A DNA stretch of 64,000 nt from Psammoneis japonica (GCA_008632985.1 QPGO01000016.1:282840-346839); one strand, 5' to 3'; numbered from the stretch's first letter, positions 10,299 to 50,496 are shown. Notes: generated by a model not told the origin, from the sequence alone. Numbers and translations: made by a program.

Positions 10299-10692
10299 CC
10301 ACGTTTGTTCGTTCGTCCACAGCGCCCAACGCCTGCGTCAGCTGGCCAGCCTGATCGGGAAATCCAACCGATGTAAAATGAGAACGGTTCGGGGGTCTTG
10401 TCCACCTCCAGTCAGCTTGCCTGCAGGGGTTTGCAACCCGCTGCTCCACTCGCAAGCAACCCAAAGCGCCACTGGCTGCGGGTTCGGATGTGCCAGCACA
10501 ACTCTACGGACCGGACAGGAAGTTCAGCACTTGACAACGAACGGGATGACACAGCCCAGCGACTTCTGATTTTAAGATGGTTCAAGATTTCAAGTCAAGT
10601 CTGTTTCAAGTCAAGTCTGTTCTCACCCAAGTTTCAAGTCTGCCTTCGCATCCCAACCAGAATCGCTTGTTCTGACACCGCTTTTGTCTGCC

Positions 10693-13600: not shown

Positions 13601-16600
13601 TCAGTTCGCCTGCCCACACATGGCTGCTGGCGCTCATGTGCGTGTGCTTCATGCTCAACCACACAGCATCCCCACATCTCCACTGGCGCACGCCCCTCGA
13701 GACTCTCACTGGCTCCACCCCGGACATCAGCCCATTGCTTCGCTTTCACTGGTGGGAACCTGTGTGCTTCCACCTCGATGACTCCAATTGGCCGTCCGAA
13801 TCCCGTGAGTTGTGCGGACGCTTTGTTGGCATTGCTGAGCACGTCGGCCACCAGATGACCTTCAAGATTCTCTCTGACGACACTCAGAAGATCCTCTGCC
13901 GGTCCAACGTACGATCCGCTGCCACCGATCCTGCCGTTTGAAACCTGCATCTTGATCCTCCTGATGGGGAGCCACCTGAACCCATCATCAAATCTTGCCA
14001 TGACGACAACCCCGTCGATTCACCCAATGGGGAGATCAGGACACCCAAGATGCCAGTTTTTGATCCGCAAGACATCATCGGACGCACCTTCCTCATGCAG
14101 CCACAAGAGGACGGACAATGCCACAGAGCTCGCATCGTCAAGGCCGTTGAAGACCACGAATGGAAAGTGAACGGCAACCCTGAGCTCACTGAGTTCGTCT
14201 GCTCTGTCAACAACGATGAATGCGAGGAAGTCCTGGCCTGCAAGGACATCATGAATCACATTGAGCAAGAAGACGAAGACACTGCTGTTTGGAAATTTCG
14301 ACGCATTGTGTCACACGAAGGACCTCTGAAGCCTCATGACCCAACCTGGAAAGGCTCAAGCTACAACATCATGCTTCAATGGGAAAGTGGGGAGATCACG
14401 TCCGAGCCTCTTGCCATCATCGCCAAGGACGACCCTGTCACCTGCGCCATCCATGCACGAGAGAACGGACTTCTCGACACTGATGGCTGGAAGCGGTTCC
14501 GCACCATCGCGAGGCGCCAGAAGAAGCTGTTCCGCATGGCCAACCAAGCCAAGCTTCGCTCCTTCCGCACTGCACCTCGCTGCAAGTGCGGACACGAAGT
14601 TCCCCGGAACTGCAAACACGCCATGTCACTGGACGAACGCAACGGCAACCGCAAATGGGGAGACGCAACTAATCTCGAGATGGACCAACTCGATGAACAC
14701 GAAGTCATTCATGACTGCGGGCCCTCCGAGTCTTCCACTCCTCCTGCAGGACACAAGAAGATCCGAGTGCACCCGGCGCACGACGTGAAACATGACGGCA
14801 GCCACAAGGCACGACTCACAGCCGATGGGCACCTCACAGATGCACCCATCGACAGTGTCTGCTCCGGAGCAGTCTCCCTCCGTGGCCTTCGGCTGATGAT
14901 TTTCCTGGCCGAACTCAATGAGTTGGAGACATGGGCCACCAACATTGGCAATGCCCACCTTGAAGCCACCACCAAGGAGAAGCTGTGCATCGTAGCTGGA
15001 CCCGAATTTGGCAAACTCGAAGGCCACATTCTTGTCATCCACAAGGCCCTGCATGGACTGCGCAGCTCCGGCCTCTGCTGGCACGAGCGCTTCGCCGACT
15101 GCCTGCAAGCTGAAGGTTTCTTCCCCTGCCGTGCCGAACCCGACATTTGGATGTGCAGGAACGGCGACCACTGCGAATGCATTGCCGTTTGTGTGGATGA
15201 CCTCGCCATTGCCATGAAGGATCCTCAATCTTTTGTCGACACTCTCACGGAAAAGTGCAAGTTCAAGCTTGAGGGCACGGGACCGATTGAGTTCCATCCA
15301 GGCTGTGACTTTTCCCAGGATCCTGACGGTGCCTTGTGCCTGTCTCTGCGCAAGCACATCGAACGCATGGTCGACAGCTGCACACGACTGTTTGGGGAGA
15401 AACCTGCCACCAACGCCCTGTCACCTCTGGAGAAGGGTGACCACCCCGAACTGGACACTTCCGAACTGCTGGGGCCTGATGGCATTCAACAGCTCCAGTC
15501 TCTTGTTGGTTCACTCCAATGGGCAGTGTCCCTTGGCCGAGTTGACATTGCCACGGCCATCATGTCACTCTCTAGCTTCCGAGCTGCGCCCCGTCAAGGC
15601 CACTTGGATCGTGCCAAACGCGTCTGTGGGTGCCTCTCCAAGATGCGACACGGCGCTCTCCACGTTTGCACGGAAGAGCCCGACTGTTCGGATCTCCCTG
15701 CTCCGGCCCATGAATGGATGCATTCCGTGTGCGGCGAGGCAGAAGAGATGATCCTGAAGGACGCTCCACCGCCCCTTGGCAAGTTCGTCACCAGACGTGT
15801 TCCAGTCCCAGGTGACGCACAAAACAACAATCAGATTTTGAATGTAATTTATGCACATTTTAGCGCACACAGCATTTTGACAAAAATGCTCAAAGGGATT
15901 GACTTTTGTGGGCTTCTAGAGCATGAACATTTAAATGGTTTTTTGAGGGGCATTCAAATCCTCATGGGACATGTGTCACAAACTTCCTCAGCAGACTCAA
16001 TGCTGATTGTGCGCCAGCAGATTTACACTGAGATTCTTTTGCAGGTAGAAAACCTGCCAAGTGGCATCGCAGGAAGACACATTTAGGTGACATCCAAATG
16101 ACGGCAATGTTTTCGCCGAAAATCATCCGTTGTGTTACGAATCTTTTCACGCAATGAAAAACACAGATGGCACAACAACAATGACATTGCAACACTCACA
16201 TGAGTCTTGTCAGTGTTGCAAAACATTTGTGTTTGTACAAATCTGTGCTTTTGGTGGTGAAAGTTCGATCGCAAGTTAGGGACCGCGCAAAAATCGTGCA
16301 AATGTCGTTTTTGTGCACGATTTGGTTCACGTGCGGCTGGAACACGTCACCACCACCCACTGCGTCAATGCAAACTTGCACCATTGCATGCTCACCGGAT
16401 GCTCTGTCATGGGAATGCTCCACTTCCTCAACAAATTCCCTGCTGATTGGTTCTCTAAGAAGCAAGCCACCATGGAGACTGCGACCTGCGGGTCTGAATT
16501 TGTTGCCGCAAGGACTTGTGTCGAGCAGATTGTCGACCTGCGCATCACCCTGCGCTGCCTCGGCGTCCCGATCCGTGACATCAGTTGCATGTTCGGTGAC

Positions 16601-16921
16601 AACAAGTCAGTTGTGGACAGTGCCACCATCCCGCACTCCAAGTTACACAAGCGACACACCGCACTGTCGTTCCACCGTGTGCGTGAGGCAATTGCCTCTG
16701 GTCACCTTGAGCTCCACTTCATCGAAGGATCCCGCAACCCTGCTGACATTCTCAGCAAGCATTGGGGTTGCTCCCAAGTCTGGGACCTTCTCCACCCCCT
16801 CATGTTCTGGAACTTCATTCCATCCGAAGTCGAATCTGTTTCTGTGACTCCTCAAGCAAACTGGGGAGTGACAGGATTTGAGCAGGATTTGGGTGCGCGC
16901 GAAATGTCGCGCACTGTTTAG
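10693..16921 (+). pseudogene. Copia gag-pol polyprotein, inactivated
   Basis: gag FKRGIKRD; protease VDRGANGG; integrase VATDT..GDRAQVE..SEPHQQHQNFAE; RT KARL, NIGNAHL, KALHGL, VCVDD; RNase H SKKQATMETATCGSEF..NPADILSK. In-frame TGA at 13939-13941 (likely CGA->TGA) and an insertion at 15794-16348. Confidence 0.95.
15794..16348. mobile_element. Non-autonomous TIR element with 4-bp TSD, inserted at the start of RNase H
   Basis: 12-bp TIR GACGTGTTCCAG; TSD ACCA (15790-15793, 16349-16352); removing it restores the frame GKFVTTTHCVNANL. Confidence 0.9.
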
Positions 16922-23295: not shown

Positions 23296-24049
23296 CAGAA
23301 AAGGACTTTTTTTAATACTACAACACAATGGTATATCTAACAGCAGCACCAACAGCGACACAATACACACAGTAATGTCAAAGATGATAGGCCCTTTGCA
23401 GGTGTTGTTGTGTTGCTGTCTCGTTTCGTTATGCAGGAAAAAAAGATCGCGCAAAGATTCAATCTTATTGTATACGAAAATTCAAACATAATAATAAAGA
23501 ATTGTCTCTCAGTACGGAATTGTAAGAATGTGTTCAGGAACAGTCGCACGCACGGCGGTCAGATGTAGACGAGCGGAAGAGGTTGTTGATTGCGTTTTGC
23601 AATGATGATTTACGATTTCAGCCAGCCCTGAGCAACATTTTTTTCTGGAACAGCAGGTCTGCTCAGTTTCTAAACATGGTGACTCTCCAACAATGTGGAG
23701 TGTTGCAGTTGACCTCCACTCCCTTCTTGGTTGGCTGTTCCTTGCAGATTCTGAACTGACCGACGACAACGGCCTGCCAGCTGCTGCTGGCACAACCTCA
23801 GAGGTGCACGCCAGGACAGTGATGGCAACATGGCACCAGTCAGAAAAAAAACTGAGTGAAGAGTGATCCATGAGATCCTTTGACAACCAAATGTGCCAAC
23901 GTGTGTCCACTGGGTGTGTGACCACATGGTTGTGAAATGAGAAGAGAAAACTGTGAGGCAGATTGGCACGAGAGAGCTGCCAACTGGCCAACAGCAGATG
24001 AGGGGGGCACAACCACACAGCAGCCATTCAATGAAAGTGCCCCATCAAT

Positions 24050-24420
24050 CAGTGGGGCATGGCAAGCCCAGCCTGCCTTGGCAAGTGCACCCATTGGGTT
24101 GATGATGCCAGGGGTGTTTCTGGCACAAAACAATCTTGTTGACCTCCTGATGCTGGCTTTGGATTGCAAAGTGTCGGGTGTCAACATTTCATCAGTGCTC
24201 CTTGGCAGGAATCTGACAGTTGGTCATTTTAAGAGTGCCAAAAAGGAGCTGTTAATGCAGAGGGGCATTGGCCCCTTTTGAGAGAAACCAAGTTCTTTCA
24301 AGACAGATGGAAGGCATGGGGTTTGTTTGGCAGCAGCAGCACATGTGACAAATTCCACCTCAGTGGAGCCAGCCACTGTCAGGGGTTGCACTGCACAAAC
24401 ATGAGCAAGAAAACAGCCTT
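24050..24420 (-). mobile_element. Degenerate copia RNase H relic of a second family
   Basis: QPLTVAGSTEVEFVTCAAAAKQ..SVLKELGFSQKGPMPL, then NVDTRHFAIQ and PGIINPMGALAK in shifting frames. Confidence 0.75.
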
Positions 24421-24534
24421 TCAGTGCAGAGTTGGCAGCAAGCACACATTGTTCTGGCAAAAGCCATGATGTGCACAGTGGTCAAATGCAGGAGCCAAGA
24501 AGGCAATGTTGAGCATGCATTGTGCATGAATTGC

Positions 24535-25277
24535 AAAAGCTGTGCAGCGCAGAAAGATGTGGGGCAAAGGTTGTCAGCAAAAGCTGCAGAGGGTGCAGAA
24601 AGCTGCAGGGAACAGGTTTTGCTCAAATGCTGTGGGGTGCAGGTTTTGCACAAAAAGCTGCCAGGTGCAAACAGCTTTGGATGCAGGTTTTGCACAAAAG
24701 CTGCAGGGCGCAAAAGTGAATCTGTGGGGTGCAGGTTTTGCAAAAATGCTGTGGGGTGCAGAAAGAAACTGTGGGGCACAGTGTTTTTCACAAAACATTG
24801 CAGAGTGCAAAAAAGTTGCAGGGTGCAGGTTTTGACACAAAAGCTGTGGGGTGCAGGTTTCATGCAAAAAGATGTGGGGGTGCAGGTTTTGCACAAAAAG
24901 CTGCAGGGTGCAGATTGTGCACAACAAGCTGTTGGGTGCAGAAAGCTGCAGGGTGCAGGTTTTGGGTTTTGCACAAAAAAGCTGCCAGGTGCAGAAAGCT
25001 GTTGGGTGCAGGTTTTTGCACAAAAAAGCTGCCAGGTGCAGAAAGCTGTGTGGGGTGCAGGTTTTGCACAAAAAAACTGCCAGGGGTGCAGAAAGCTGCG
25101 GGGTGCAGGTTTTGCACAAAACGATGCAGGGTGCAGAAAGCTGCAGAGTGCAGGTTTTGCACAAAAAGCTGTGGGGCACACAAAGCTGTGGGAGAGCAGG
25201 CTTTGCACACAAAGCTGTGGGTGGGGTGCAGAAGCTGTGGGGGTGCAGGTTTTGCTCAAAAGCTGTGGGGTGCAGAG
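24535..25277. repeat. Degenerate minisatellite of two alternating modules
   Basis: Repeated GGGTGCAGGTTTTGCACAAAAAGCTG and GGGTGCAGAAAGCTG modules over about 740 bp. Confidence 0.9.
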
Positions 25278-25289
25278 ATGAACCTGCCT

Positions 25290-25640
25290 GGACAACAAGA
25301 GCGGTTGTCATTGCACATTTGCCAGCTTTCCAGATTCAGTCAGAACATCTCCTGCAAGATGACCACCTTTCTAAAAATGCATTGTTGAGCCTCATGCTCT
25401 TGACTTCATCTGTCAGGTGTCATTGAAACAAGTGTTGAGCCCCCTGAGCTTGGTGTCAGTTCCCCAATGTCACGTGCTGCTGCTGCTGCAGAGCTCAAGC
25501 TGTTCAAACCAAGATCAAGATGTTGTGAGCTTGTGATGTTGCTGACATGACTGGGGAGACTGTCCATCATGAGGGCACCCTCAAATGACAACAGGTTGCT
25601 TGGCAAAGTGTTTTGTGCCACTTTGGCGAGGTCAGCCAAG
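25290..25640 (-). pseudogene. Possible LRR gene relic
   Basis: LPSHVSNITSSQHLDLGLNSLS and LAGDVLTESGKLANV resemble LRR units; heavily decayed. Confidence 0.4.
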
Positions 25641-26234
25641 TTTCCTGCTGACAGCCCATGTTTTCACAAGCCTTGAAGACTTGCAGATGTTCATGGTTTG
25701 AGTCCAAAAGACTCACGGAGATCCAGCAAGCCTTTTTGTTGGAATCACTCAAATGAGTCAAGCCAGGAGGAGCAAAAAACCCAAAGGGCTGTTTCAAGTC
25801 CATTGCCAAGTTGGTTGTCATTTTCCAGGTGCATGCATTGAAGATTTGAGACCTGGAAAAGTGGTGGCAGCACACTGCTCAATGTGTGTTTTCAGACAAA
25901 TTCAATCTCCCAAGTTTGTCTCCACCACAAAAAGCTCATTTTGTGGCTTCCCATTCAGTCAACAGCCCATGCAGTCAAAGGACCAGAGTCTTGGAAGGTT
26001 TCCAATGTTGGCAAAGATGGCTCTGTCAATGTCATTGCTCTGTCCCCAGCAACACAGCTTCTCACAAGAAGGTTTGGCAGCGAGACCACATCAAGTCCAG
26101 GGTGGCTGCCATCTCCAGGTCATTGATGAGCAACAAGTGGGGCAGCAAGGTGCCAATGGATTGTGTGGAATGTTCCCATTGCAAGATGAGCCAGCGCATC
26201 TCCCACTGCCCACTGAGTCATGGGCAGCGGTGCC

Positions 26235-26720
26235 TTGGTTCAAGCCAACATTGACATGCCTGTCATTGTTCAGCTGAGCCTGTTGCTGATCTGCAATTGC
26301 TGCAACACTCAGTGCCAAGCACACTGTGACCAAAACAGAAGCTCCTTCAATCTGTCCCATTTTCAAAGTCATGTTCAATGCCCAATCCCAAAACAAGTGT
26401 CATTGCAGCTGAAATCAAAAACAACATGAGCATGGCAGAGTTGGCCAGTGCCACCCAAATCAACTCAAATGAAACATGCTTGGCTGACAGAGGCACAGCG
26501 TTGGATCTGAAGGTCCTGTGTCAGGCCAAGCTTGATGTTGGCACACCAAAATTAGACCACCAATCCCTTGACACCCTGAAAGGCAACAATGGCTCCCAGT
26601 TGTCCATTGGAAACAATTGTGGCCAGTGACTGGAGTCTTGCCCAGTGTCCCATGACCCTTGACTGGAAACAAGCCACACACCCGGCACTGTTCTTGTTGG
26701 AATCACCCCCTTTAAGACAG
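26235..26720 (-). pseudogene. Decayed paralog of the 5' part of the Ca2+-ATPase
   Basis: Aligns to about 22755-23280, e.g. IEGASVLVTVCLALSVAAIAD vs [21 protein letters not shown]. Confidence 0.85.
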
Positions 26721-29138: not shown

Positions 29139-32100
29139 GGATCAACCTCCAGCCTTCACGAGGTTTGTTCCTTTGCGAAGGTCGAATGAGAAAGCTTTCT
29201 TCGATGTCGTGTGTGACGTTGCGACGTTGCGCACGCAGGAAGAATGGAATTCGAAATTTTGATGACGCCATCAAGTTCAACAAACCCGGCTTTTCAGATC
29301 GTGCGCGGTTTTGAATGTACTACTGCTGTACTGCACTGGGGCCCCATCAGACTCTACCGGATGTGCACTGTGCTGTAGAGTGCATGTCTGTCTGGCTTCT
29401 TTTCGTTCCATTTTCTAGTGTGTGTCCCTGGCCATTTTGTTCAAACGCTTTTTCGCAGCAGGGGATTTCAGATCTTGTGGTCACAAAACCCAAAAAAAAT
29501 CCACAAGGTCTCATCGGTTGGCGCCTGCTGGTTTCCATTGAGGGTGCAATTTTTTCTGTCATTTTCTGCACAAGCAATTCTTTGTGCGGAGCCCCCAAGT
29601 GCTCTCTCTTGTGCTCATTTGGTGGCATGAGGGTGATGGCTGCAGAGACAAATGCAGCAAGCACAATGCCGTCATCTTCAAAGCTTTTTCAATGCTGGCA
29701 TGTTCCCAGCACAATCCAGTCGGATTTTGGTCAAGATTGCCGCTGTCCCCACCAAATGTGGGCCTGCTTTGTCTCTTTGTCAGCATGGCTCAGGCTTCTG
29801 CTGGTGCCATTGAAAAAGTTGGTGACAAGGTTGAGGGGCTCAAAGTTGGCAACCAAGCTTGCAGCCATGTGGAAGAGCTGGTGGGCTTGCCAGGGGCTCC
29901 TCTGCAGAGCACGCAGCAAACCCAAGAATTCTTTGTGCATGGGGGCAAGTTGGCAACCAAGCTTGCAGCTGTGCAGGGCAGCTGGCAGGCTTGCCAGGTG
30001 CTCCACTGCATGGCGCACTGCTGCCAAAACAAAACTTCCTGTTGTTGCAGCAAAATCCAAGAATTTGAGTGTGGAGGAAGCTGCTTGGTGCACTGCTGCA
30101 CCGCTGGCGGGTGTGCTGCCACTGCTTGCAAAAGACTGATCTGTCACAGAGTTGGGCAAAATGCTAAAAACGAAGAAGGTGGCATTTGGCATGTTGCACA
30201 CTGCAGCGCACACACAAACAAGCACTTTGGCTGGCTTTTCAACTCACTCAACCTCCTGTGGAGAGAGAGGTGTCTCAAGGAGCAAGCAGAGGCAAGCAAG
30301 CCATTGGGCATCGCAACAGCAGCTGGTTGCAAGAAAGAAAGTGCAGAGTCACAAAATAAAAACACATGAACAGGAAAAGATTTGCAATGGTCGTGCAAAC
30401 CAGTTTGGCTCAACCCCCCCCCCCAAATGCACCAAAAAGTCTGACAAAGCCAAGATGCCAAATGCAGCAACACTGTGCCAACTGCCAACACATCTGTGAA
30501 ATGGACTTGACCCAGGCCCATTTCAGGGATCTGTCACTTGCTCACATTTTCCTCATGTTGACCCCAATGTTGCACAATGTGTTGCACAAAAAGTGTGGAA
30601 GAAGACACTGGCCCATCTTGCTGAAATCTGTTGATCTGGTGGCTTGCAGCCAATCCATGACAAGACAGACTTCAAACCAGCAGAAGGGGTTGGTGAGGCT
30701 CATGCTCTCATCTTCTTGACAGTGCAAAAGCAACAGGGCAAGGCTGCAGCTAAAAACTGAGTCCTGCAGAAAGAACAGCACAGCCACTCTCTAGATGTGT
30801 GTGGAGTTCTGGGCAGTGCTGGCACTTTCTGCTCAATGGGTGGACTTCTTGGTGCACAAGAATGGCCCAGTTGACCAAAGGTGGTCAAAAGAAGGCAGCT
30901 TGGTTGTGCAAAACATGGCATGCAAAGGAAGGCACCAATGTCAGTTGACCAATGCTCTCCTTTCAGTGCCCAGCAGCACAAAACACACATGTGCTGCTTC
31001 AGCGACTCAGCTCTCAGTCAGCAGCCCGCCATGCACTCCCAGACAAATGGCGCCAGACTCTTTGGTGTGCATGAAAAAACTTTCCACTGGCTCTCCAATG
31101 CCTTTTGTCAAAAACATGTTTGCACACCCTGCAGCTCAAATGCAGGTGAACATCAGCGGGGCCCCTGGTTGGACAACTGACCAGCAGGTTCATCTTCCCC
31201 AAACCTTCAGTCTGCTTGAGTCAGCAACCACCAACCACAGTGCTGAGACAACATTGCTGCCCTTGTTGCCACTGCATTGTCCCTTGAAAAGGCCCTGCAG
31301 TTGTTTTCATTGCAGCCCACTCAGAGCAAATGTTGCAGCTCAGCATTGTTGCAAGAGAAAGCTTGACTGCCAGCAAAAAGAAATGGAAGCCCCCAAAACA
31401 TCTCACAGATGGCCATCCAAAGGGCAAATGGTGGTCATGATCAAACTTGGTCAGCCTCAAACACAGCACACCAACAGCCAATTGATCATGCAGGACAATG
31501 TCAGGAGCAGATTCAAGGCCTTTGTCGCACATTTGATGTGTGCTTTGACTGGTGGCAGGTGCCATCGATGTGCTGTGAAAACATTCCAAGACAAGCCAAC
31601 AAATGAGGTGGAGCCCACCGTGCACCCACAGCTCACATCACATCAAGATGGTGCCAACAACCTTGCCAAAGATGTGATGGCACAGCCAGAGAGAGCTGAA
31701 ACCATCCTGCCAAAGAACCCGCCAACAACACACAAGCTCATCTTCTTTCCACAAAGACAGCCAGCCAGAGCTCAGCTTGAGAACACCAAGACACACTCCA
31801 AAGTTGAAAGTCCTGGCTGACACAAGCTCTGACTCAGCAACACACATGTTTGTCAACTGCCAATGGCACATCTCCAACTCCTGAAAGATGTCAAGTGTCC
31901 TGACAAGATGGGAGGCCACAAGATGTTGGATTTCTGATGCAGCCACTGCTGCGAGCTGCAGTTTTCTCTGTGCAGTCAATGACCATCTCCTTGACATCCT
32001 TGTGTGAGAGAAAAGGTTTTGCAAAGACATGGAGAAGGACAAAGCAACACATGTGATGCTTGCAATGTTGATTTTGCTGTGCACATGGAGGGCAGTGGTG

Positions 32101-33624
32101 GTGTGCTGGTGTGGACTGGGTTCTTGCTGGTTGCCCTCCAATGTGTGGCCTGCTCCACAGCACTTGGTGCACAACACAGAAAAGCACAAAAGCTGTCAGC
32201 CCCTGGTGGAGCACAGATCTGGCAAGCTCTGTGTGCCTCAGCTGCAAACTGCATGTTCCACAACCCAAGTTTTCTTGCACCTGCTCTTGCAAAATCATGT
32301 GCAACATTGTGAAAAGACACACACAAGACATTTTCCATGCAAGAGGATGTCATTGGCTCACTCTTGAAGAGCAGGTGCAGTCACTGACGATGCTTCTGAC
32401 TAAGTCACTTGGGTGTGACTCACCTGACTTGTCATCTGGCAGTGCCCCAGAGTGAAAAATGCTGGCAAGTGAGTCAAAAATCAAAAGAGGAGCAACTGCA
32501 TGATTCACACGGGGAAGAAGCATTTGCCGTGAGTGAAGAGCAAGTGCTGGAAAAACTTGCAGGACAAGAAAGGAGCACAAAAATGGGGTCTGGGCACAAA
32601 AGCAAGAAACACTTGGCAAGACATGATGGAACAAAGCAAGGCTTTGCTGCAGCTGCTGACTTGGTTGCTTCTCATGCCAGACTCTCTCCTCTGGCTGCAC
32701 CATCTTCCACATCCTCTCAGAGCAACAAAAGAGTGTGCCAAGCTGCTCATCCAACTGTGGAGACCTTCTTGTGCAACAAATGTTAGCAACCTTGTGGCAC
32801 TTGCTGCACAGCCTTGCCAAATGTCTGGAAAGTCAGAGGCGTGCACATGGCACATGTGCGCCTCTTGTTGTCAAGCATCTGGTCTGTTTTTGTCATGTTG
32901 CTGCAGTCTAAAGGGCACCTTTCAGCCAAAATGGGCCAGGCCCTTCCACCAGCTGACAGGAATGTTTTCTCTCTCCACCAGCTTCCTTTGAGCTGGTTTC
33001 TCTGCTGCTCATGCTGGGCTGGCTCTCTTGTGTCCAGTGTGTTGTGGTGCAAGATTCCCAGTGTCAAAAAATGAGCACAGATTTTTGTGAAGTTAAACTT
33101 GGCAGGTGGTGCAAAAACCTCCTTCATCAAGAAGAGAAGCCCCTGTCTCAAGCCAGAATGAAAAAGTTGTGCCTTGCAAGCAAATGACTTTGGACCACAA
33201 ATGCTCACACATCTCACCCTCCTGCTCACTCAACCAGTTTCATCTTGATGACTCTGCCACCATTGCAAACTTGACTCAGTTCTAAGTTGAAAGGCACTTT
33301 CTGTGCCAGCTCTGATTCGCGTCCTGTGCATGGAGAGCGGCCAGCCAGCTTGCCATTTGCTGTGAAAGTCACAATGGTCATGAGTGTGTCTGTCCACAAG
33401 AACAATGACCGTGGGCATGTGTGATCTTTGAACAGTCATCAACATTGACACATGTCTTGATGAGATTCATCATCTGTCCAAAATGACCTCTCCATGAATG
33501 AAATCGGCAGAGGTCATTGCTGCACTCCATCCCAAGCTCATGTTTTTCCAAAAATCAGATGAGAGAATGACATCTCCAGAACACAACATGCTTTTTTTCA
33601 CTTGCTCAAAGCACAGCAAAAGAT

Positions 33625-34208
33625 GAATGACACAAAGTCATCTTGTCATGAAGATGTCACACAAACCATGATGATTTGTTGGCGCCTGCTGTTGGAGATG
33701 GATTGCCGCCTGCTTCCAAGCAAGCAACGCTGGAGACTGAGCAGATGTCACATGCTTTGAGAAGGCCAAAAGAACATGACGCAATGAGAAATGCTCTCGA
33801 CTGCAGCATTGAGCCATCTTGTGGCAATGACAACATCTCATCCTCTGTCGAATGTTCAACGACTTGTCGAAAATTCACAAAATGAAATTAATGCACAGCA
33901 TGGCAAAGCCTGTTGGAGATCAATCTGATGGAGAACTCCCCAAAGGAAGGCCATCAAAAACAACAATGCACGTGCGGTTTCAACAGTGTGACAATGGAAC
34001 AAAAACCACCATCTTGGGCCCGCTTCTCAAGCCTTCATCCGAAATGAGCAAGGACAAAAAGGAAACAATCTGGCAGCAGCAATCCGATTTTCATGTGTTT
34101 GCCAAGGACACTGCAAGCATTTGCTGTCATCAAGGTTGGTTGTCAGAGAATGACAGTGGATCATGCACCTCAACGTCATGCAAGGTTTGTAAAAAGTGCT
34201 CTTCTTGG
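33625..34208 (+). pseudogene. Truncated, hypermutated copy of the gene at 37453-38351
   Basis: KPVGDQSDGELPKG..LGPLLKPSSEMSKD shared with the intact copy; ends at the duplication junction. Confidence 0.88.
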
Positions 34209-34449
34209 TGCAGTTTTCTCTGTGCAGTCAATGACCATCTCCTTGACCTCCTTGTGTGAGAGAAAAGGTTTTGCAAAGACATGGAGGAGGACAAAGCAAC
34301 ACATGTGTGATGCTTGCAATGTTGATTTTGCTGTGCACATGGAGGGCAGTGGTGGTGTGGTGTAGACTGGATTCTTGGCTGCCCTCCAATGTGTGGCCTG
34401 CTCCACAATGCTTGGTGCACAACACAGAAAAGCACAAAAGCTGTCAGCC

Positions 34450-36026
34450 TCAGTTTGGTTTTACCACGGGATTCCCCAAAATTCCCCGGGATTGCCACCT
34501 TTTGCCATGATTTTCCACGGGAACCATGATTTCCCGGGGAATCACCATGAACCGTGCTTCGTCACATGCACGCCACACACATGAACAAAAAATTGCACAT
34601 TGGCAATTCCCTGTGCTTCCCTTCTCATACATTTCTTCATCTCCCACGTGCCGGGACGTGCCGCAGGAGCCAGACAATCAACAGACTGCAACAAAAATGG
34701 GCAACATGCCATGGCGCGCTCGCATCCCATTTGTGACGGCTGTTGTCTGTCAATCATGACACCGTTCAATGCACTCAATGATGTCAATTAAACGGGATCC
34801 ATGACACAAAACACAAGATGAAATGTGATTGCACATGTGCAGAGTGGCAGCGCAGATGGGTTCCAGCCCCAGGCGGGACTCCGTGTGACATTGGGCCCGC
34901 AGAATTCTGCGTGCGAGCTCCGCAGCAAATTTGTGCTGCAATGAAAACACAAAAGATCGCCAACAGAAAAAGAGGCAATTTTGTGAATGCATCTCCTCCT
35001 TCATGCTTGGAGCACATCATTGACAGTTTGCCCGGGCATGTTCTTCAGACATCAAAGAACATGCCCAGCGCATTTTCATTCTCACAAATGTTGAAAACAG
35101 AGAGCCTTTGGCTTCACAAAACAGGGAGTGTGAAACAATTTTGTAGAATGTCACATGCAGAAATGCACGTGCGCGACATGCAACGTGATCCAAAAAACTG
35201 TTGATGTCACAGTTCAGCAGTGCGAGGTCCCACCTGGAGCTGGAACGCGCCCGCAATTGAGCCATCAGTTGTCAGTTTTTCTTTTGTCATGCAGCCACAA
35301 ATGCAAGCCACAAGGTGCACAGCGAAGGCCAAGGCAGAAGCAGAGCCATGCACAGCCAATAAAAACAACATGGCGGATTGAACGGTCACCCTCATTCTTC
35401 CAATTTACACATCTCATGTGCAGAATGAAGGGGATTGTTTAGTTCACTCTTTTGTCGTGCACCCAGAAAGGCAAGCCACAAGGCATCCAGTGTGAAGGAT
35501 GAGGCAAAATGGGAACTGCACATGGTTGATGAAAATGTGGCAGATTGATTGACAATGTTCATTCTTCCCTTTGACCTGTCTCATGTGCAGAATGCACTGC
35601 ATCATTTTTTCCTTCTTGTGTCGTGTGGTCACAAATGCAAACCACAACGGCTCTAGAGCAAAGGCTGCAGCAAAAACAGAGCCGTGCATGAGCAATGTAA
35701 ACATGTGTGATTTAATGGCAAAGTTTGTTCTTCCCTTGCTCTGTCACAAGGGGACGCTTTGTGTTGATTTGTCAATGCATCCATCATGGTCAGTGGTGGC
35801 AGAGCCTGGCTTTCTGGTTGAATGTGTCAAAAGCACAACCACCCACAAAACACAAGACGGGAATCACCGTGCTGCACTCACATTTTGTTCCTTCCCCTGA
35901 CCCCTTTCAGTCGTTCCTTCCCGCCAAATCACCCTCATTTCCCGGGCATTCCCCAAAAGGGCAAGGCAATCCCCCCTTGCCCTTGCCACATTTTGAGGAA
36001 TCCCCAAATGGGCAAAACCAAACTGA
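34450..36026. mobile_element. Non-autonomous TIR element, Mutator-like
   Basis: TIR TCAGTTTGGTTTT(A/G)CC; 10-bp TSD GCTGTCAGCC (34440-34449, 36027-36036); empty site in duplicate unit 1 at about 32192-32201. Confidence 0.88.
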
Positions 36027-37452
36027 GCTGTCAGCCCATGGTGGAGCACAGATCTGGTGAGCTCTCTGTGTGCCTCAGCTGCAAACTGCATGTTCCACAA
36101 CCCAAGTTTTCTTGCACCTGCTCTTGCAAAATCATGTGCAACATTGTGAAAAGACACACACAAGACATTTTCCATGCAAGAGGATGTCATTGGCTCACTC
36201 TTGAAGAGCAGGTGCAGTCACTGATGACACTTCTGACTGAGTCACTTGGGTGTGATTCACCTGGCTTGTCATCTGGCAGCGCCCCAGAGTGAGAAATGCT
36301 GGCAAGTGAGTCAAAAATCAAAAGAGGAGCAATTGCATGATTGCATGGAAGCATTTGCCATGAGTGAAGAGCAAGTTCTGGAAAACCTTGCAGGACAAGA
36401 AAGGAGCGCAAAAATGGGCTCTGGGCACAAAAGCAAGAAACACTTGGCAAGACATGGTGGAACAAAGCAAGGCTTTGCTGCAGCTGCTGACTTGGTTGCT
36501 TCTCATGCCAGACTCTTTCCTCTGGCTGCACCATCTTCCACACCCTCTCAGAGCAACAAAAAAGTGTGCCAAGCTTCTCACCCAACTGTGGAGACCTTCT
36601 TGTGCAACAAATGATGTCAGCGACCTTGTGGCACTTGCTGCGCAGCCTTGCAAATGGCTGGAAAGTCAGAGACATGAGCATGGCACATGCACGCCTCTTG
36701 TTCTCAAACATCTGGCCTGCTTCTGCCATGTGGCTGCAACCCCAAGGGCACTTTTTAGCCAAAACGGGCCGGGTTCTTGCACCAGCCAACACGAGTGTTT
36801 TCTCCGACAGCTTCCTTTGAGCTCTTGTTTCTCTGCTGCTGCTCACACTGGGCCGGCTCTCTTGTGTCTGGTGTGTTGTGGTGCAAGATTCCCAGCATCA
36901 AATGAGTGCAGATTTTTGTGAGGCAACTTGGCAGGTGGTGCCAAAACCTCTTCTGGCCGCCCGTCCAGGAGAGAAGCCGCCCCCTGGCCTCAAGCCAGAA
37001 AGCTCCTGTGCTTGGCAACCAAATGACTTTGGACCACAAATGCTCACACATCTCACCCTCTTGCTCGCTCAACCAGTTTCATCTTGATGACTCTACCACC
37101 ATTACAAACTGGAGTTAGTTCTTAATTGAAAGGCACTTCAGCACCAGCTCTGAGTCGCATCCTTCGGAGAGCGGCTGGCTTGCCATTCGCTGTGAAAGTC
37201 ACAACGGTCATGAGTGTCTGTCCCCAAGAACAATGACCTTGGGCATATGTGATCTTTGAACTGTCATCGACGTTGACCACATGTATGTCTTGATAATAAG
37301 ATTTATCATCTGTCCAAAATGACCTCTCTACAATGAAATCGGCAGAGGTCATTACTGCACCATCCAAGCTCATATTTTTCCAAAATCAGACGAGAGAACG
37401 AATCTCCAGAACATAACACGCTTTTTTTCACTCGCTCAAAGAACAGCGAAAG

Positions 37453-38351
37453 ATGCTTGACACAAAGTCATCTCATCATGAAGATATCACAAACCATGAT
37501 GATTTGGTCCCTGCTGTTGGAGATTCTTTGCCGCCTGCTTCCAAGCGAGCAACGCTGAAGGCTGAGCAGATGTCACATGCTCCGAGAAGACCAAAAGAGC
37601 GCGACGCAACGATAAATACTCTCGACTACAGCATTAAGCCATCTTATGGTATTAACGATATCTCATTCTGTCGAATTTTCAATGACTCGTTGAAATTTCA
37701 CAAAATAAATTAATTCACAGCATGGAAAAGCCTGTTGGAGATCAATCTGACGGTGAACTCCCGAAAGGAAAGCCACCAGAAACAACAAGACACGTATGGT
37801 TTCAACAATCGAACAATGGAATAAAAACCACCATTTTGGGTCCGCTTCTCAAGCCTTCATCCGAAATGAGCAAGGACGAAAAGGAAGCAATCTGGTGGCA
37901 GCAATCCGATTTTCATGTGTTTGCCAAGGACATTGCGAGCATTTGCTGTCATCGCGGTTGGTTATCAGAGAATGCCAGTGGATCATACACCTCAACGTTA
38001 CGCAAGGTTTATAAAAAGTGCTCTTCTCGGACTCCATTTGTAGGCGACGACTACCGATCAGTTCTCAGTGATCGTGAGATGCAGGAGCTGGTCCTATGGA
38101 TTAGAGTCACGACCTCAAGACGAGGGCTCGAACGAATTTCGATCCCATTTCTCGTTGAAGCTCGTAGACGAGGCAGGGATCAAGCTGTTCGATCCGTAAT
38201 TGAGCACCAGAAACGAGTTGGATTTGTCTTTAATTCCGATTCAAAGTGCGATTCACTACGGACCTTCCTGGAGAAGCGCACGCAGCCAGCAAAGATATTT
38301 GCACGACTTTTGGCAGAAGCGGATGCAGCCGTATGTGGTGATTCTCTTTGA
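37453..38351 (+). CDS. Diatom-type hypothetical protein (VxF..WW..RGLE family); frameshift near 37706
   Basis: IWWQQSDF..RRGLER..AVRSVIEHQKR..AEADA pattern; the duplicate has one extra base at the frameshift site. Confidence 0.7.
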
Positions 38352-48069: not shown

Positions 48070-48774
48070 CGTGTCAAACAAACTAATGATCTACGCAGCA
48101 CAACCCTTTCAAAGTATGAAGAAGAGATTAGATCAAAGAAGTGTGAGTAAAGATACGAAATGAATGAATAAACATCAAAGTATGGGTCGGTGTCAGTCAC
48201 AAAATACCAATGCGAGACCACACCAGTCTGACCGATATTTCTCGCCACAAATCAAACACACAGCATAAACAAGATAGGGGATACTTTTCGTATCTATAAT
48301 AAAGAGATGACAGCAATGGTACGCAACAGAGGAGGTGCATTGAACGAATACACATCAAAGTATGGATCGTGTCAATTCCATGTTTTTTGGTGTTTCTTGT
48401 CGATACGAGAGAACGATGTTTCTCGACAAAGCCCCTACCCACAGCATACCCAAGACATGGGATATCTTTAGTGACTATTGTGAGTCGATACCAGCCAAGC
48501 GAGTCATCAGAAGAAGTGAAATGAACGAATAAATCAAAGTATTGGTTTTGCCGCTTGCCGCTCAAAAATGGCTGACAACAGCGAAGAGACCCATATTTTG
48601 ATTTCTACACAACGACAACACCGTTTCTCGCCAAACCAAGGACCTCACCTAACAGATCGACCTCCTAAAAGTAATATCAGCTTCTCCAATGAACGAAAAC
48701 GATGAAGAATAGCTCAAACAAGGCCGAGTATGGGTCGGCGCTGGCGTCATCGCCAAAACGAAATCTGCGATCTA

Positions 48775-50100
48775 TGCACGCGGTCCGGAAAAAAAGGGTC
48801 TGTGCGCGCAAAATCCCACGGATCGCGCGAAAGCCAATGTGATTTCTTGTTGGGCATCATGGCTCCAATGATCCAGAACCTGGGAGTGATCCAGAACACT
48901 TTGACTTTCTTGGAGTCCATGGCGGGGCTTCTTGCTTCTTGGCACACAGCCACTGGCTGGTGGCTGGTGACCCCTCCAAAAGTTTGTCTTTGCAAAGATG
49001 CTGCACATTGCTCGTGGCACATGACAACTTCAACTTCTTGGGAGGAGGCACGCCAGATGAAACTGCTGTGTTTGGGCCTTCGTTCAAGACAAACTCACCA
49101 CCAAGGATGGAGTGGAGTTTGTCCAACAAACACCAGCAGTGCACTTTGACAAGAGTGCCAAAGAAGCTGCAAAAGCAAGGGGGGTGGCTTCACTTTGCTG
49201 ACCCCAGCAGCATTGTTCCTTTTTTTGAGATCGTGGTCTCTTCAACCAAGTGCTCTGACAAAATGGTGCTCCCCACTGTCTCAATGAGGCAGACTGTCAA
49301 TCCACTTGAACGCTCCTCCTTGAAGAATTTTTCTTTGACATTTGCAGTTGCTTGTCACCAGGTGGTTGTGGGCATTGTCCAGAAACCCCTGTTGAGTGGT
49401 GCTTGTTTGATGTTCAGCATCACATTGTGACTTTAGAGAACCTTGAGCCTGGCACCTGCCTTGGCTTTGAGAGTGCAGCTCTGTCTTGGCAAATGGAAAT
49501 GTTGCTCACTCCAAATGTCCCACAAACAAGTCTTTTTGCAACATCTGTGGCACACCACCCTCACCCCAGTGGGGGCATCCACATTGGCCAAGCCTGCGCC
49601 CATGGATCAGTTTCCAGGATTGGAAATTCACTTGAACTTCCTCTCCAGGATGACAAAACTCTCAACTCAGTCCTTTCTCAGTCTGTGCTGCAAAAAAAGC
49701 ACTTGCTGGCAAAATGAAAGAGCTTGTCCCAAACTTTTCCCAGTGAGATTGCTGCCTTGGTTGTGCTCAGAGTCAGCGACATTTTGCAATCTCGTCCCAA
49801 GCAGCACAATGGCAATTCCTGCAAATTGTGCAGAGAGCGCACCAGTGGCTGCTGCTGCTGCTGCAAAAGCAAGTTTTTCACTGCCAACTGTTGCTGCATG
49901 CTGGAGGACAAGAATCCAAGTGTGATTCCTGCACCTTTGATTGTGAGTGCACGGTCAACACATCTGGAAACCTGTGCACCACAGGAGGTGGTTTTGGAAG
50001 CAATTCCATGATGGTGTGCAGGAATGAAAACAAGGCTTGTGGTCTTTGACAGTTTCATTCAGCACAAAAGCGCAACACCCGGTTGCTGTGAATGACCCAA
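48775..50100. other. TpA/CpG-depleted tract of unknown origin
   Basis: Essentially no TA over 1.3 kb; no recognisable domain or termini. Confidence 0.7.
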
Positions 50101-50496
50101 AACTGTTCTACATCGGCCGATCCAGCTCTAGACTCTAGAAATAACAGGAATGGCACTCGGCTTCAACACAAATTTTACAGGCATGCTTGTTCCATCATCA
50201 CATGCACAGTAGTATCCCTGCAGACGATTCACCACTACCTTAAATTTTCTCTTCAAAACACAAGTTCTAACCGATTGTTGAGCCTACCTTGCCATGTGCG
50301 AAACGAAGTGCTGTAGACGGCAGCTTATGGAAACTGTTTCTGACCCACCCCAAGTTCAATTTTATTCCTATAGAGAGTCTTTAGAGTAGCAGCACAACAT
50401 CTTATTCGCGCATTCACCTCCCTTAACAAGCGCTCTCAAAGGAATCGTTCGCAGCCTTCAAATTGGAAACTGGACAAACGTCGGACTACGTCAACT

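What the first reader, a model, noticed from the sequence alone, without database searches (positions are those of the whole stretch)
33230..38030. Tandem duplicate vs intact gene: asymmetric conversion with a sharp border near 37090
Comparing 37722-38030 with 33900-34208, 6 of 7 TpA sites are converted in the left copy (GTAT->GTGC, AATA->AACA, TTAT->TTGT, ATAC->ATGC, GTTA->GTCA, TTAT->TTGT) and one TAAA survives. Unit 2 is TA-free until about 37090 and then abruptly normal (CTCTACCACCATTACA vs CTCTGCCACCATTGCA) although homology continues. Unlike RIP, which hits both paired copies, targeting looks domain- or chromatin-based and spares the complete gene with its upstream region. Selection could contribute.
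Basis: partly seen in the sequence, partly recalled or inferred. Interest (0 to 1): 0.82.

Follow-up and report, generated by a model that had tools for sequence, protein, structure and literature searches.

The report
TpA-erasing hypermutation in silenced DNA
A truncated gene duplicate and the transposon-filled DNA around it have had nearly every TA (and, more slowly, every CG) changed to TG or CA while the intact gene next door is untouched, which points to a genome-defence-like mutation process, in a diatom-like alga, that I could not find described anywhere.

Summary
Right of 37094 the intact right copy has 28 aligned TpA. The left copy has TG at 16, CA at 8 and TA at 2; other dinucleotides are kept 703 of 845 times (p=1e-17). 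CpG is converted too: 23 of 39.

Direction is settled by outgroups. The right copy keeps the gene family's conserved Tyr and Leu where the left has Cys and Ser. A Copia element in the same window has Cys or His at 32 of 37 conserved Tyr positions, including YVDD to CVDD.

The window holds six sharp-edged blocks with TA observed/expected at or below 0.10. Inside them TA loss is all-or-none, whereas CpG loss is graded from 0.93 to 0.00 and is lowest in the host sequence around nested insertions. Duplicates outside the blocks are not converted. An independent contig set confirms the border.

Best reading: a fast, in-situ, domain-restricted A:T-to-G:C hypermutation at 5'-TAY-3', overlaid by slower CpG decay, acting on transposon-derived silent DNA. 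It resembles RIP in effect but not in chemistry or targeting. The enzyme is unknown, and eight literature searches found no precedent.

The parts
29417..37093 (.). Block D. A 7.7-kb stretch almost free of TpA and CpG: 23 TA (o/e 0.05), 111 CG (o/e 0.24), CA o/e 1.70 and TG o/e 1.91. It contains the left unit and the left part of the right unit.
   Evidence: The left edge lies between TA 29416 and 30165. The right edge lies between TA 36756 and 37094.
31957..34208 (+). Left unit (L) of the tandem duplication: a truncated, fully converted copy. Sub-parts are A plus B-left 31957-32782, B-mid 32783-33254 and B-right 33255-34208.
   Evidence: 86.9% identity over 2049 columns to 36026-38030, and 31957-32201 matches 34209-34449 at 93.5%. 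TA o/e 0.02-0.10 and CG o/e 0.06-0.39.
33900..34208 (+). Converted pseudogene copy of the first 103 codons of the gene. It ends at the duplication junction 34208|34209.
   Evidence: Tyr89 and Tyr97 to Cys, Leu93 to Ser, Arg78 to Gln and Trp59 to Gln, each against the family consensus.
34209..34449 (+). Right unit (R), part A'. It is separated from the rest of R by a transposon insertion.
   Evidence: 96.5% identity to 31957-32201.
34450..36025 (.). Nested element with terminal inverted repeats (Mutator-like by its roughly 10-bp target-site duplication). It is TA-poor (10 TA, o/e 0.10) but still half-rich in CG (o/e 0.52), and it belongs to a very abundant repeat family.
   Evidence: 17-nt arms at 34449-34465 and 36011-36027, 94% complementary; the same 10-11 bases lie on both sides of the insert and once in the left unit; summed contig depth reaches 91128 against about 60 in the flanks. 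One search gives the dinucleotide counts.
36026..36613 (+). R, B-left. TA-free and CG-free (0 TA, 2 CG), 95.7% identical to L.
36614..37093 (+). R, B-mid: the transition zone. It is TA-free (1 TA, o/e 0.04) but CpG is only partly lost (12 CG, o/e 0.35).
37094..37721 (+). R, spared upstream region of the gene, with normal TA and CG density from the first base. The border of the TA-free domain lies within 36757-37094.
   Evidence: 21 aligned TA here, of which L has 12 TG, 6 CA, 1 AA, 1 GA and 1 TA; 25 aligned CG, of which L has 11 TG, 6 CA and 8 CG; a contig spans 37031-37871.
37722..38351 (+). Intact gene of 209 codons. It belongs to an uncharacterised protein family with no Pfam model.
   Evidence: the ORF; 194 homologs at E<=0.001, the best at 38% identity; no Pfam match.
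10574..16919 (+). Block B. A Copia-type retrotransposon that is TA-erased but CpG-rich. It supplies the polarity proof.
   Evidence: RVT_2, E=4e-19. Tyr to Cys at 23 and to His at 9 of 37 conserved Tyr columns; coding part TA o/e 0.06 and CG o/e 0.82; 1719 codons with a single stop.
6264..9000 (.). Block A. TA-poor (o/e 0.10) with CpG partly kept. It holds a 920-bp element with terminal inverted repeats (7778-8697) nested inside a repeat that recurs at 16869-17144.
23672..26553 (.). Block C. TA o/e 0.02 and CG o/e 0.11. At its right end lies a converted copy (26289-26802) of the 5' fragment of the P-type ATPase gene (22823-23360).
   Evidence: of 21 aligned TA, 7 are TG and 7 CA; of 26 aligned CG, 13 are TG and 2 CA.
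48774..50109 (.). Block E. TA o/e 0.01 and CG o/e 0.27.
60483..62093 (.). Block F. TA o/e 0.05 and CG o/e 0.14.

Best explanation
Shown. The window comes from a diatom-like stramenopile. Its long intergenic, transposon-derived stretches are subject to an in-situ, sharply bounded mutational process. That process turns TpA into TpG or CpA (an A:T-to-G:C transition on one strand or the other), never into CpG, and runs to near saturation. A second change, CpG to TpG/CpA, accumulates in the same stretches more slowly and independently.

The 2252-bp tandem duplication placed a copy of the gene's upstream region and first 103 codons inside such a stretch. That copy lost 24 of 28 TA and 23 of 39 CG. 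The right copy is TA-free only up to about 37094, roughly 630 bp before the start codon, and is normal from there on.

The target is context-dependent. TA in R-TA-Y is almost never left; TA in Y-TA-R (TTAA, CTAA) survives most often. Polarised cases point to the A of 5'-T-A-Y-3' as the hit base.

Inferred. The blocks are silenced, probably CpG-methylated domains, and the edge at 37094 is the edge of the active gene's promoter region. TA erasure acts as a fast burst, RIP-like in effect. It destroys every Tyr codon, TATA-like and AATAAA-like signals, and both TA-containing stop codons. CpG loss is ordinary methyl-cytosine decay, or a slower deaminase activity with a 5'-T/A preference.

The chemistry most likely to give A-to-G at T-A is adenine deamination to inosine by a DNA-acting deaminase recruited to silent chromatin. 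I put about 0.35 on that step. TadA/ADAT-type enzymes naturally require a U/T before the target A (recalled).
For: Conversion counts and significance.

Polarity for this gene. Among 40 homologs the right copy keeps Tyr89 (Tyr in 37 of 39 homologs), Tyr97 (31 of 39), Leu93 (19 of 39), Arg78 (26 of 38) and Trp59 (27 of 39), where the left copy has Cys, Cys, Ser, Gln and Gln.

Polarity for the process. Take the 37 columns where at least 80% of 19 homologous Copia polyproteins have Tyr. There the window's element has Tyr 1, Cys 23, His 9, Phe 2, Leu 1 and Arg 1. Other conserved residues are kept 74-100% of the time. The catalytic YVDD reads CVDD. Tyr content is 0.2-0.4%, against a median of 3.8% and a minimum of 2.9% in the 120 homologs.

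Fast process against slow process. TA o/e is at or below 0.16 in every unit inside a block. CG o/e runs 0.93, 0.82, 0.74, 0.60, 0.52, 0.39, 0.35, 0.27 and on down to 0.00. The two nested, hence younger, insertions have more CG than the sequence that hosts them: 0.93 against 0.60, and 0.52 against 0.00-0.06. The Copia frame has only 1 stop in 1719 codons.

In situ and domain-limited. Host-gene fragments are converted in two independent places. Duplicates outside the blocks are not: TA is kept 9 of 20 and 9 of 15 with no directional bias, and CG 10 of 16 and 10 of 14. TA and CG borders coincide within about 50-100 bp at the five borders I read for this (left edges of C, D, E and F; right edge of E), but not at the right edge of D. 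At the right edge of C, CG stays low for about 450 bp beyond the last TA-free stretch, the opposite order to D's right edge.

Context. Of 66 surviving TA, 36 are Y-TA-R, against 283 of 1665 outside the blocks. Only 4 of 66 are R-TA-Y, against 544 of 1665 (chi-square p=1e-14). Cys exceeds His 23 to 9 at Tyr codons (p=0.02).

Not an artefact. X1 contigs agree with the window inside the blocks, with 0-2 differences per 842-2870 nt, at full depth. No TA-to-CG product is seen among 28 sites.
Against: - No methylation, chromatin or expression data could be brought to bear, so 'silenced domain' is an inference from position and content.
- The whole genome is not held, so 'genome-wide' is an extrapolation from six blocks in 64 kb.
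- The sharp coincident borders would also fit inserted DNA that arrived already mutated.
- The abundant Mutator-like family looks TA-poor as a family. In the shown part of the variant table (40 of 68 rows) none of the 5 variants that fall inside the element restores a TA (my reading of the contexts). TA-poverty of that element may therefore predate this copy.
- The strand and context tests on polarised events are weak: the effect of the base before the codon has p=0.12, and TG against CA in the duplicate is 16 to 8 (p=0.15).
- The right copy is not wholly untouched. At codon 26 it has TGG where the left copy and 20 of 36 homologs have Arg/CGG.
- The uneven transversion divergence along the unit is unexplained.
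- No candidate enzyme was seen.
Confidence: 0.72

Rival explanations
1. Hypermutation happens during transposition, by editing of transposon RNA or cDNA or of excised DNA. On this view the blocks are simply insertions that arrived TA-free, and their sharp edges are element ends. The left unit would have been carried along as transduced flank.
For: - The borders are very sharp.
- Three recognisable elements are TA-poor while still CpG-rich.
- The abundant Mutator-like family appears TA-poor as a family (limited table).
- There is a sense-strand bias of 23 to 9 at Copia Tyr codons.
Against: - The converted left unit is a head-to-tail tandem copy of host DNA, joined directly to its source (34208|34209).
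- A second host-gene fragment is converted at 26289-26802.
- In the right copy the host-side zone 36614-37093 is TA-free.
- Both strands are hit in every data set: 16 to 8, 7 to 7, and 23 to 9.
- RNA editing alone cannot give T-to-C on the sense strand.
Confidence: 0.1
2. A RIP-like, homology-triggered process mutated the duplicated DNA. The right copy looks spared only because lineages with a damaged gene were lost.
For: - Converted host DNA is seen only where it is duplicated.
- Diatoms carry DNMT4 enzymes that may be related to fungal RID; their function is unknown (passages of PMC9998398).
Against: - The spared part holds 31 TA and 39 CG in 937 bp, and 21 of the 28 aligned TA and 25 of the 39 aligned CG lie in the non-coding 628 bp upstream. 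Selection cannot hold each of these.
- Duplicates of 380 bp (82% identity) and 950 bp (69%) outside the blocks show no directional conversion.
- About 2.5 kb of block D (29417-31956) and blocks C, E and F have no partner in the window and lie at about single-copy depth (with that tool's caveat on depth).
Confidence: 0.08
3. The same footprint arises with no dedicated adenine deaminase. Either deaminated methyl-CpG triggers patch repair by an error-prone polymerase (Pol eta-like, A-to-G at WA), or thymine modification at TpA (5-hydroxymethyluracil-like) miscodes as C.
For: - TA loss and CG loss occupy the same domains.
- Both known processes give transitions at A:T pairs. The Pol eta WA motif and the TpA preference of 5-hydroxymethyluracil in dinoflagellates are recalled, not tested here.
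Against: - AA goes to AG at only 3 of 98 sites, against 24 of 28 for TA, which is far stricter than a WA motif.
- TA erasure is complete in elements that have lost almost no CpG (Copia CG o/e 0.82, the 7778-8697 element 0.93). It therefore cannot depend on prior CpG deamination events.
- Saturation with so little collateral change argues against low-fidelity synthesis.
Confidence: 0.07
4. Artefact. Either modified bases (5mC, 6mA) were miscalled in a long-read assembly, or two haplotypes were assembled as a duplication.
For: - The pattern (C read as T at CpG, A read as G) resembles known miscalls at methylated sites (recalled).
- The window differs from X1 contigs by several small indels, which suggests a long-read assembly.
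Against: - X1 contigs, at exact 31-mer depth 56-74, agree with the window inside the blocks and across the border: 0 other letters over 37031-37871 and 33192-34049, and 2 over 29119-31986.
- Depth in the blocks equals that of the flanks, so both strands agree and both units are present at full dose.
- Strand-discordant miscalls would leave TA and CG products, whereas 24 of 28 sites are cleanly TG or CA and none is CG.
- The two units also differ by 49 transversions.
- Caveat: X1 probably comes from the same sample as the assembly, and its platform is not on record.
Confidence: 0.03

Closest known systems
Repeat-induced point mutation (RIP) of Neurospora and other ascomycetes
   Same: Context-specific transitions that run to near saturation. 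They ruin transposons and duplicated gene copies and leave blocks of skewed dinucleotide content with sharp edges. Diatoms carry DNMT4 enzymes that may be related to RID (PMC9998398, passages).
   Different: RIP is C:G to T:A, mostly at CpA, makes DNA AT- and TpA-rich, and hits both copies of a repeat (abstract of PMC2621366 in the listing). Here the main change is A:T to G:C at TpA, which removes TpA. GC content stays near 0.49. One partner of the duplication is spared, and unique DNA appears to be affected.
RIP-like TpCpG hypermutation of transposons in Microbotryum and other Pucciniomycotina (recalled; not read here)
   Same: C-to-T at CpG with a 5' T preference. Here the base before the mutated C is T in 17 and A in 11 of 37 events, and TCGA is the rarest surviving CpG context.
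   Different: It has no TpA component and occurs in fungi. The preference seen here is modest.
Decay of methylated CpG in diatom transposons
   Same: CpG methylation of transposons is documented in Phaeodactylum (passages of PMC9998398 and PMC2806351). A related Copia fragment from another source is CpG-poor (o/e 0.27) with normal TA (o/e 0.58) (L001).
   Different: It explains only the slow CpG half. It does not explain TA o/e 0.01-0.10, nor TA erasure in elements that still keep their CpG.
Editing footprints of ADAR or APOBEC in retroelements of animals
   Same: Clusters of one kind of transition are fixed in genomic copies of retrotransposons (abstract of PMC4866542 in the listing; the ADAR part is recalled).
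   Different: Those footprints are strand-exclusive, limited to retro-copies and far from saturation. Here both strands are hit, host-gene duplicates are hit too, and only TpA is affected.
TadA/ADAT2-ADAT3 adenine deaminases and ADAR-independent A-to-I mRNA editing in fungi (recalled)
   Same: They require U/T immediately 5' of the target A. The native TadA site is U-A-C-G, which resembles the 5'-T-A-Y-3' preference inferred here.
   Different: They act on RNA loops, and no natural DNA-targeted member is known to me. No such gene was seen in the window, and the genome is not held.
CTAG depletion in E. coli through very-short-patch repair (recalled)
   Same: A system tied to cytosine methylation drives T-to-C changes that remove a TA-containing word and enrich TG/CA words.
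   Different: It is genome-wide, weak and tetranucleotide-specific, and it occurs in bacteria. It is neither domain-limited nor saturating.

Membership tests
Fungal RIP | C:G to T:A transitions with a CpA (or other CpN) preference, giving a TpA excess | tested here: not met
   The dominant change is TA to TG/CA (24 of 28), and TpA o/e falls to 0.01-0.10. C-to-T is confined to CpG.
Fungal RIP | Triggered by sequence duplication, with both copies mutated | tested here: not met
   The right copy is spared over 937 bp. Two duplicate pairs outside the blocks are not converted. Parts of the blocks have no partner in the window.
Fungal RIP | Premeiotic timing and dependence on RID/DIM-2 | not testable with these tools
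   No genome is held and there are no life-cycle data.
Methyl-CpG decay | CpG to TpG/CpA, graded with age | tested here: met
   23 of 39 in the duplicate. CG o/e is graded from 0.93 to 0.00, and nested, younger insertions have more CG than their hosts.
Methyl-CpG decay | 5-methylcytosine present on the affected DNA | not testable with these tools
   No methylation data were available.
Methyl-CpG decay | Accounts for the whole footprint | tested here: not met
   TA loss is independent of CG loss: Copia has TA o/e 0.06 with CG o/e 0.82.
RNA/cDNA editing footprint (ADAR- or APOBEC-type) | Changes on one strand only, and only in retro-copies | tested here: not met
   Both strands are hit: Cys 23 to His 9, TG 16 to CA 8, and 7 to 7. 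Tandem host-gene duplicates are affected.
Pol eta-type error-prone repair signature | A-to-G at WA, that is at AA as well as TA | tested here: not met
   AA to AG at 3 of 98, against TA to TG/CA at 24 of 28.
TadA/ADAT-like adenine deamination | T/U required 5' of the target A, with a pyrimidine favoured 3' of it | tested here: inconclusive
   The 5' T holds by definition of the footprint. For the 3' pyrimidine: survivors are Y-TA-R in 36 of 66 and R-TA-Y in 4 of 66 (p=1e-14), and Cys exceeds His 23 to 9 (p=0.02). The direct polarised test gives p=0.12, and 25 of 35 mutated-strand A have a 3' pyrimidine against 19 of 35 on the other strand.
TadA/ADAT-like adenine deamination | A deaminase gene, and inosine intermediates in DNA | not testable with these tools
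   The genome is not held.
Tandem segmental duplication | Head-to-tail units with one novel junction, and the downstream copy continuous with unique sequence | tested here: met
   31957-34208 and 34209-38030 (minus the insertion 34450-36025) align end to end. The junction is at 34208|34209, and the right unit runs on into the rest of the gene.
Ty1/Copia LTR retrotransposon (block B) | RVT_2 reverse transcriptase and a polyprotein homologous to Copia elements | tested here: met
   RVT_2 at E=4e-19. 1025 homologs in the searched length class (1188-3390 residues), the listed best mostly about 1850-1930 residues, at about 60% identity.
Ty1/Copia LTR retrotransposon (block B) | Two long terminal repeats | tested here: not met
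   No repeat was found between 9000-11500 and 15500-17800 or in purine/pyrimidine space. The element may be truncated at its 5' end.

The most novel reading that the evidence does not exclude
This alga has a natural, chromatin-targeted DNA adenine mutator. The enzyme (a TadA/ADAT-like deaminase, or one with a new fold) would deaminate the A of 5'-T-A-Y-3' on either strand of silent DNA. In one or a few bursts it would erase every TpA of a newly silenced transposon or gene copy. That would make it an A-to-G counterpart of RIP, aimed by domain rather than by homology, and separate from the slower CpG decay.
Probability: 0.35. Interest if true: 0.95.

Novelty: new variant of a known kind. Interest (0 to 1): 0.82.

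Why it matters
Directed hypermutation of selfish DNA is so far known as a C-to-T process: fungal RIP, APOBEC on retroelements, and methyl-CpG decay. A saturating, TpA-specific A:T-to-G:C process would be a second chemistry for genome defence, and it would be found in the ecologically dominant diatom lineage.

Several things follow if it is real.
- It kills transposons in a distinctive way. All Tyr codons, including the catalytic YVDD, become Cys or His, while reading frames stay open because TAA and TAG disappear and no new stops arise. Such DNA fills with long spurious ORFs in all six frames (44 ORFs of at least 90 codons overlapping 29000-40000, most of which is TA-free block). Gene predictors will annotate these as proteins.
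- TA status gives a yes-or-no mark of 'has been silenced', and CpG content gives a clock. That is a simple tool for dating insertions and mapping silent domains from sequence alone.
- The sharp edge about 630 bp upstream of an intact gene offers a natural place to study how a mutagenic domain is stopped.
- If the agent is a DNA-acting adenine deaminase, it would be a natural relative of the engineered adenine base editors.

Tried and rejected
- **Whole genome.** It is not held, so no genome-wide survey and no search for deaminase or DNMT4 genes was possible.
- **Word-based homolog search with the gene.** Nothing scored. The full HMMER search then found 194 homologs.
- **Expression.** No RNA holder is listed. 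Run X2 covers only some genic stretches and has no cover on the blocks or on 37216-38483. Its library type is not on record, so nothing is concluded from it.
- **Pfam on the blocks.** I scanned 97 stop-to-stop ORFs of at least 80 codons from the blocks. None reached a cut-off; the single hit was Pex16 at E=0.008, 16 bits against a cut-off of 25. What blocks C, D (29417-31956), E and F once were remains unknown.
- **Hidden homology.** A self-comparison after recoding to purine/pyrimidine found only the pairs already known.
- **LTRs of the Copia element.** None found.
- **Relatives in metagenome contigs.** One locus at 59% identity was found, with normal TA. No unconverted near-identical copy turned up.
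- **Tyr-poor relatives.** None of the 120 listed Copia homologs is Tyr-poor. Only 120 of 1025 hits could be seen.
- **Earlier findings of this scan.** Nothing relevant.
- **Bacterial-type promoter and terminator scan at the border.** It is not applicable to a eukaryote and I ignored it.
- **TG-versus-CA discordant sites.** I first read the 12 such sites between the two units (8 of them left of the border) as proof that both copies were converted independently after the duplication. I rejected them as proof. Codon 59 shows a TGG-to-CAG flip in the left copy from a non-TA, non-CG ancestor, so such flips can arise through a short-lived TA or CG intermediate.
- **Literature.** Eight full-text searches and a term look-up in one diatom transposon preprint (0 hits) found no description of TpA-to-TpG/CpA hypermutation. 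One search failed on term syntax. Subscription journals and supplementary files were not searched.

Full report
**What the window is.** It is eukaryotic. One ORF carries DUF6824, which I recall as a diatom/stramenopile domain. A short-chain dehydrogenase has its best named relatives in diatoms (Nitzschia, Seminavis, Pseudo-nitzschia, Thalassiosira) at about 50-60% identity. No whole genome is held for it.

- The two units align over 2049 columns at 86.9% identity (32191-34208 against 36026-38030). A further 245 bp (31957-32201 against 34209-34449) makes them head-to-tail units of about 2252 bp.
- The right unit is interrupted by a 1576-bp insertion and runs on into the rest of a 209-codon gene.
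- Over the whole stretch right of 37094, 24 of 28 aligned TA are TG (16) or CA (8), 2 are kept and none is CG. Other dinucleotides are kept 703 of 845 times (p=1.2e-17).
- Unit 2 has one TA between 36026 and 37093, then four within 30 bp from 37094. The border therefore lies somewhere in 36757-37094.

**Direction of change.**
- The gene has 194 homologs, the best at 38% identity, and no Pfam family. In an alignment of 40 of them, the right copy keeps the family residue where the left does not: Tyr89 (Tyr in 37 of 39 homologs; left copy TAC to TGC), Tyr97 (31 of 39; TAT to TGT), Leu93 (19 of 39; TTA to TCA), Arg78 (26 of 38; CGC to CAA) and Trp59 (27 of 39).
- There is one exception. At codon 26 the left copy (CGG) and 20 of 36 homologs have Arg, while the intact gene has TGG. 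That is a CpG change in the spared copy.
- An independent and stronger outgroup sits in the same window: a Copia-type element (RVT_2 at E=4e-19). Take the 37 columns where at least 80% of 19 homologous polyproteins have Tyr. There it has Tyr once, Cys 23 times and His 9 times. Other conserved residues are kept 74-100% of the time, and conserved Arg is Cys or His in 7 of 51 columns.
- Its YVDD motif reads CVDD.
- Its reading frame of 1719 codons has a single stop.
- None of the 120 listed homologs is Tyr-poor.
- TA and CG are therefore ancestral and TG/CA derived. The element was hit hard at TA while otherwise almost intact.

**It is one of six blocks.**
- Blocks C to F (23672-26553, 29417-37093, 48774-50109, 60483-62093) have TA o/e 0.01-0.05 and CG o/e 0.11-0.27.
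- Blocks A and B (6264-9000, 10574-16919) have TA o/e 0.09-0.10 but CG o/e 0.75-0.81.
- The rest of the window has TA o/e 0.57 and CG o/e 0.95.
- GC content stays near 0.49 in blocks A and C to F (0.56 in block B, the Copia element), and CA and TG rise to o/e 1.4-2.0.
- Edges are abrupt, and the TA and CG edges coincide within about 50-100 bp at the left edges of C, D, E and F and the right edge of E. The right edge of block D is an exception: CpG resumes near 36614 and TA at 37094. At the right edge of block C the order is reversed, with CG still low for about 450 bp after TA returns.
- A second host-gene fragment repeats the pattern. The copy of the 5' end of the P-type ATPase gene at the right end of block C has TG or CA at 14 of 21 TA and at 15 of 26 CG of the original.
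- Two duplicate pairs that lie outside the blocks show no directional conversion.

**Two processes, not one.** Unit by unit, TA o/e is at or below 0.16 everywhere inside a block. CG o/e forms a continuous series:

| Unit | CG o/e |
|---|---|
| Nested inverted-repeat element 7778-8697 | 0.93 |
| Copia coding region | 0.82 |
| Sequence hosting the 7778-8697 element | 0.60 |
| Nested Mutator-like element 34450-36025 | 0.52 |
| Left copy, B-right | 0.39 |
| Right copy, B-mid | 0.35 |
| The remaining block units | 0.27 down to 0.00 |

- Both nested insertions must be younger than the sequence that hosts them, and both have more CpG than that sequence.
- TA loss therefore behaves as fast and all-or-none, while CpG loss behaves like a clock.
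- The apparent ratio of the two rates also differs between elements. It is about 2.4 in the left copy. It is far higher in the Copia element, where the TA signal is nearly saturated (Tyr kept at 1 of 37 conserved columns) while CG o/e is still 0.82. This comparison across elements is my own estimate.

**Target context.**
- Of the 66 TA that survive inside blocks, 36 are Y-TA-R (TTAA, CTAA/TTAG, CTAG), against 283 of 1665 outside the blocks. Only 4 are R-TA-Y, against 544 of 1665 (p=1e-14).
- Unpolarised counts cannot say which flank matters. At Copia Tyr codons, however, the sense-strand A is hit 23 times and the antisense A 9 times (p=0.02).
- The split by the base before the codon goes the expected way: 13 Cys to 2 His after a pyrimidine, and 10 to 7 after a purine (p=0.12).
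- This fits a preference for the A of 5'-T-A-Y-3'.
- For CpG, the base before the mutated C is T in 17 and A in 11 of 37 events, against 10 and 8 on the other strand. TCGA is the least likely CpG context to survive.

**Artefact checks.**
- Contigs of run X1 agree with the window inside the blocks and across the border: 0 other letters over 37031-37871 and over 33192-34049, and 2 over 29119-31986. Their depth equals that of the flanks.
- The small indel differences suggest that X1 is a different data type from the assembly. X1 is probably from the same sample, and its platform is not on record.
- Miscalls of modified bases that differ by strand would leave TA and CG products. None of the 28 sites is CG.

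**What remains open.**
- Why the first 826 bp of the unit differ by 6 transversions in 811 positions while the rest differ by 49 in 1391 (p=2e-5). Gene conversion or a second, later event are both possible.
- What blocks C, E, F and 29417-31956 once were. Pfam gave nothing on 97 ORFs.
- Whether the very abundant Mutator-like family (summed depth up to 91128 against about 60) was TA-poor before it spread.
- Which enzyme acts, and when in the life cycle.

**Comparison with what is known.**
- In effect this works like RIP. It fails both RIP features that could be tested here: the chemistry and context, and the mutation of both repeat copies.
- The CpG half matches methyl-CpG decay, which is documented for diatom transposons (passages of PMC9998398 and PMC2806351). 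A related Copia fragment from elsewhere shows CpG loss with normal TA.
- The TA half matches nothing I could find. Eight searches and one preprint look-up gave no precedent.
- The nearest chemical analogue I can name is the TadA/ADAT deaminase family, which needs U/T before its target A. That is recalled and was not tested here.

**Verdict.** The best explanation is a domain-restricted TpA-erasing hypermutation plus slower CpG decay. I rate the interest as high.

Noticed in passing
10693-15849 (+): A Copia-type polyprotein frame of 1719 codons with a single in-frame TGA. Tyr is 0.2-0.4%, Cys about 4% and His about 5.5%. Because TA-to-TG/CA cannot create a stop and removes TAA and TAG, the dead element still looks like an open gene.
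   Followed up: yes
29000-40000, both strands: 44 ORFs of at least 90 codons overlap this stretch, in all six frames. Most of it is TA-free block, where only TGA can stop a frame. Such ORFs are likely to be annotated as hypothetical proteins.
   Followed up: partly
34450-36025: A Mutator-like non-autonomous element with 17-nt terminal inverted repeats and a target-site duplication of about 10 bp. Summed contig depth in run X1 reaches 91128, against about 60 for the flanks, so the family is very abundant. In the shown part of the variant table the frequent variants in other copies restore CpG, not TpA.
   Followed up: partly
7778-8697, inside 7638-8836: A 920-bp element with 33-nt terminal inverted repeats and an apparent 3-bp duplication. 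It is nested in a 280-bp repeat that recurs at 16869-17144. The two repeat copies are 93% identical in bases but 99.3% identical as purine/pyrimidine strings, and they differ mostly by CG against CA/TG in both directions.
   Followed up: partly
22823-23360 and 26289-26802: The 5' fragment of the P-type ATPase gene is repeated on the far side of block C. The far copy is converted: 14 of 21 TA and 15 of 26 CG. Blocks C and D are thus both bordered by a duplicated gene start.
   Followed up: partly
24486-25287: Internal degenerate tandem-like repeats inside block C, at 69-77% identity.
   Followed up: no
31957-32782 against 32783-34208 (and their partners): Transversion divergence between the two units is 0.7% in the first 826 bp and 3.5% in the rest (p=2e-5). 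This suggests gene conversion or a two-step history of the duplication.
   Followed up: partly
37797-37799 (codon 26 of the gene): The intact gene has TGG (Trp) where the converted left copy has CGG and 20 of 36 homologs have Arg. That is a CpG-to-TpG change in the copy that is otherwise spared.
   Followed up: partly
22000-41000: Run X2, from the same sample as X1, covers only some genic stretches (22000-23363, about 26990-28530, 38856-39514, 40017-41000), as a transcript library would. Its type is not on record.
   Followed up: no
42010-42955 and 43868-44819: Two neighbouring paralogous ORFs (341 and 439 codons, 69% DNA identity) with no Pfam family and normal TA and CG content.
   Followed up: no
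whole window outside the blocks: TA o/e is only 0.57 even in normal, gene-rich DNA. I did not examine whether this reflects a weak genome-wide share of the same process.
   Followed up: no
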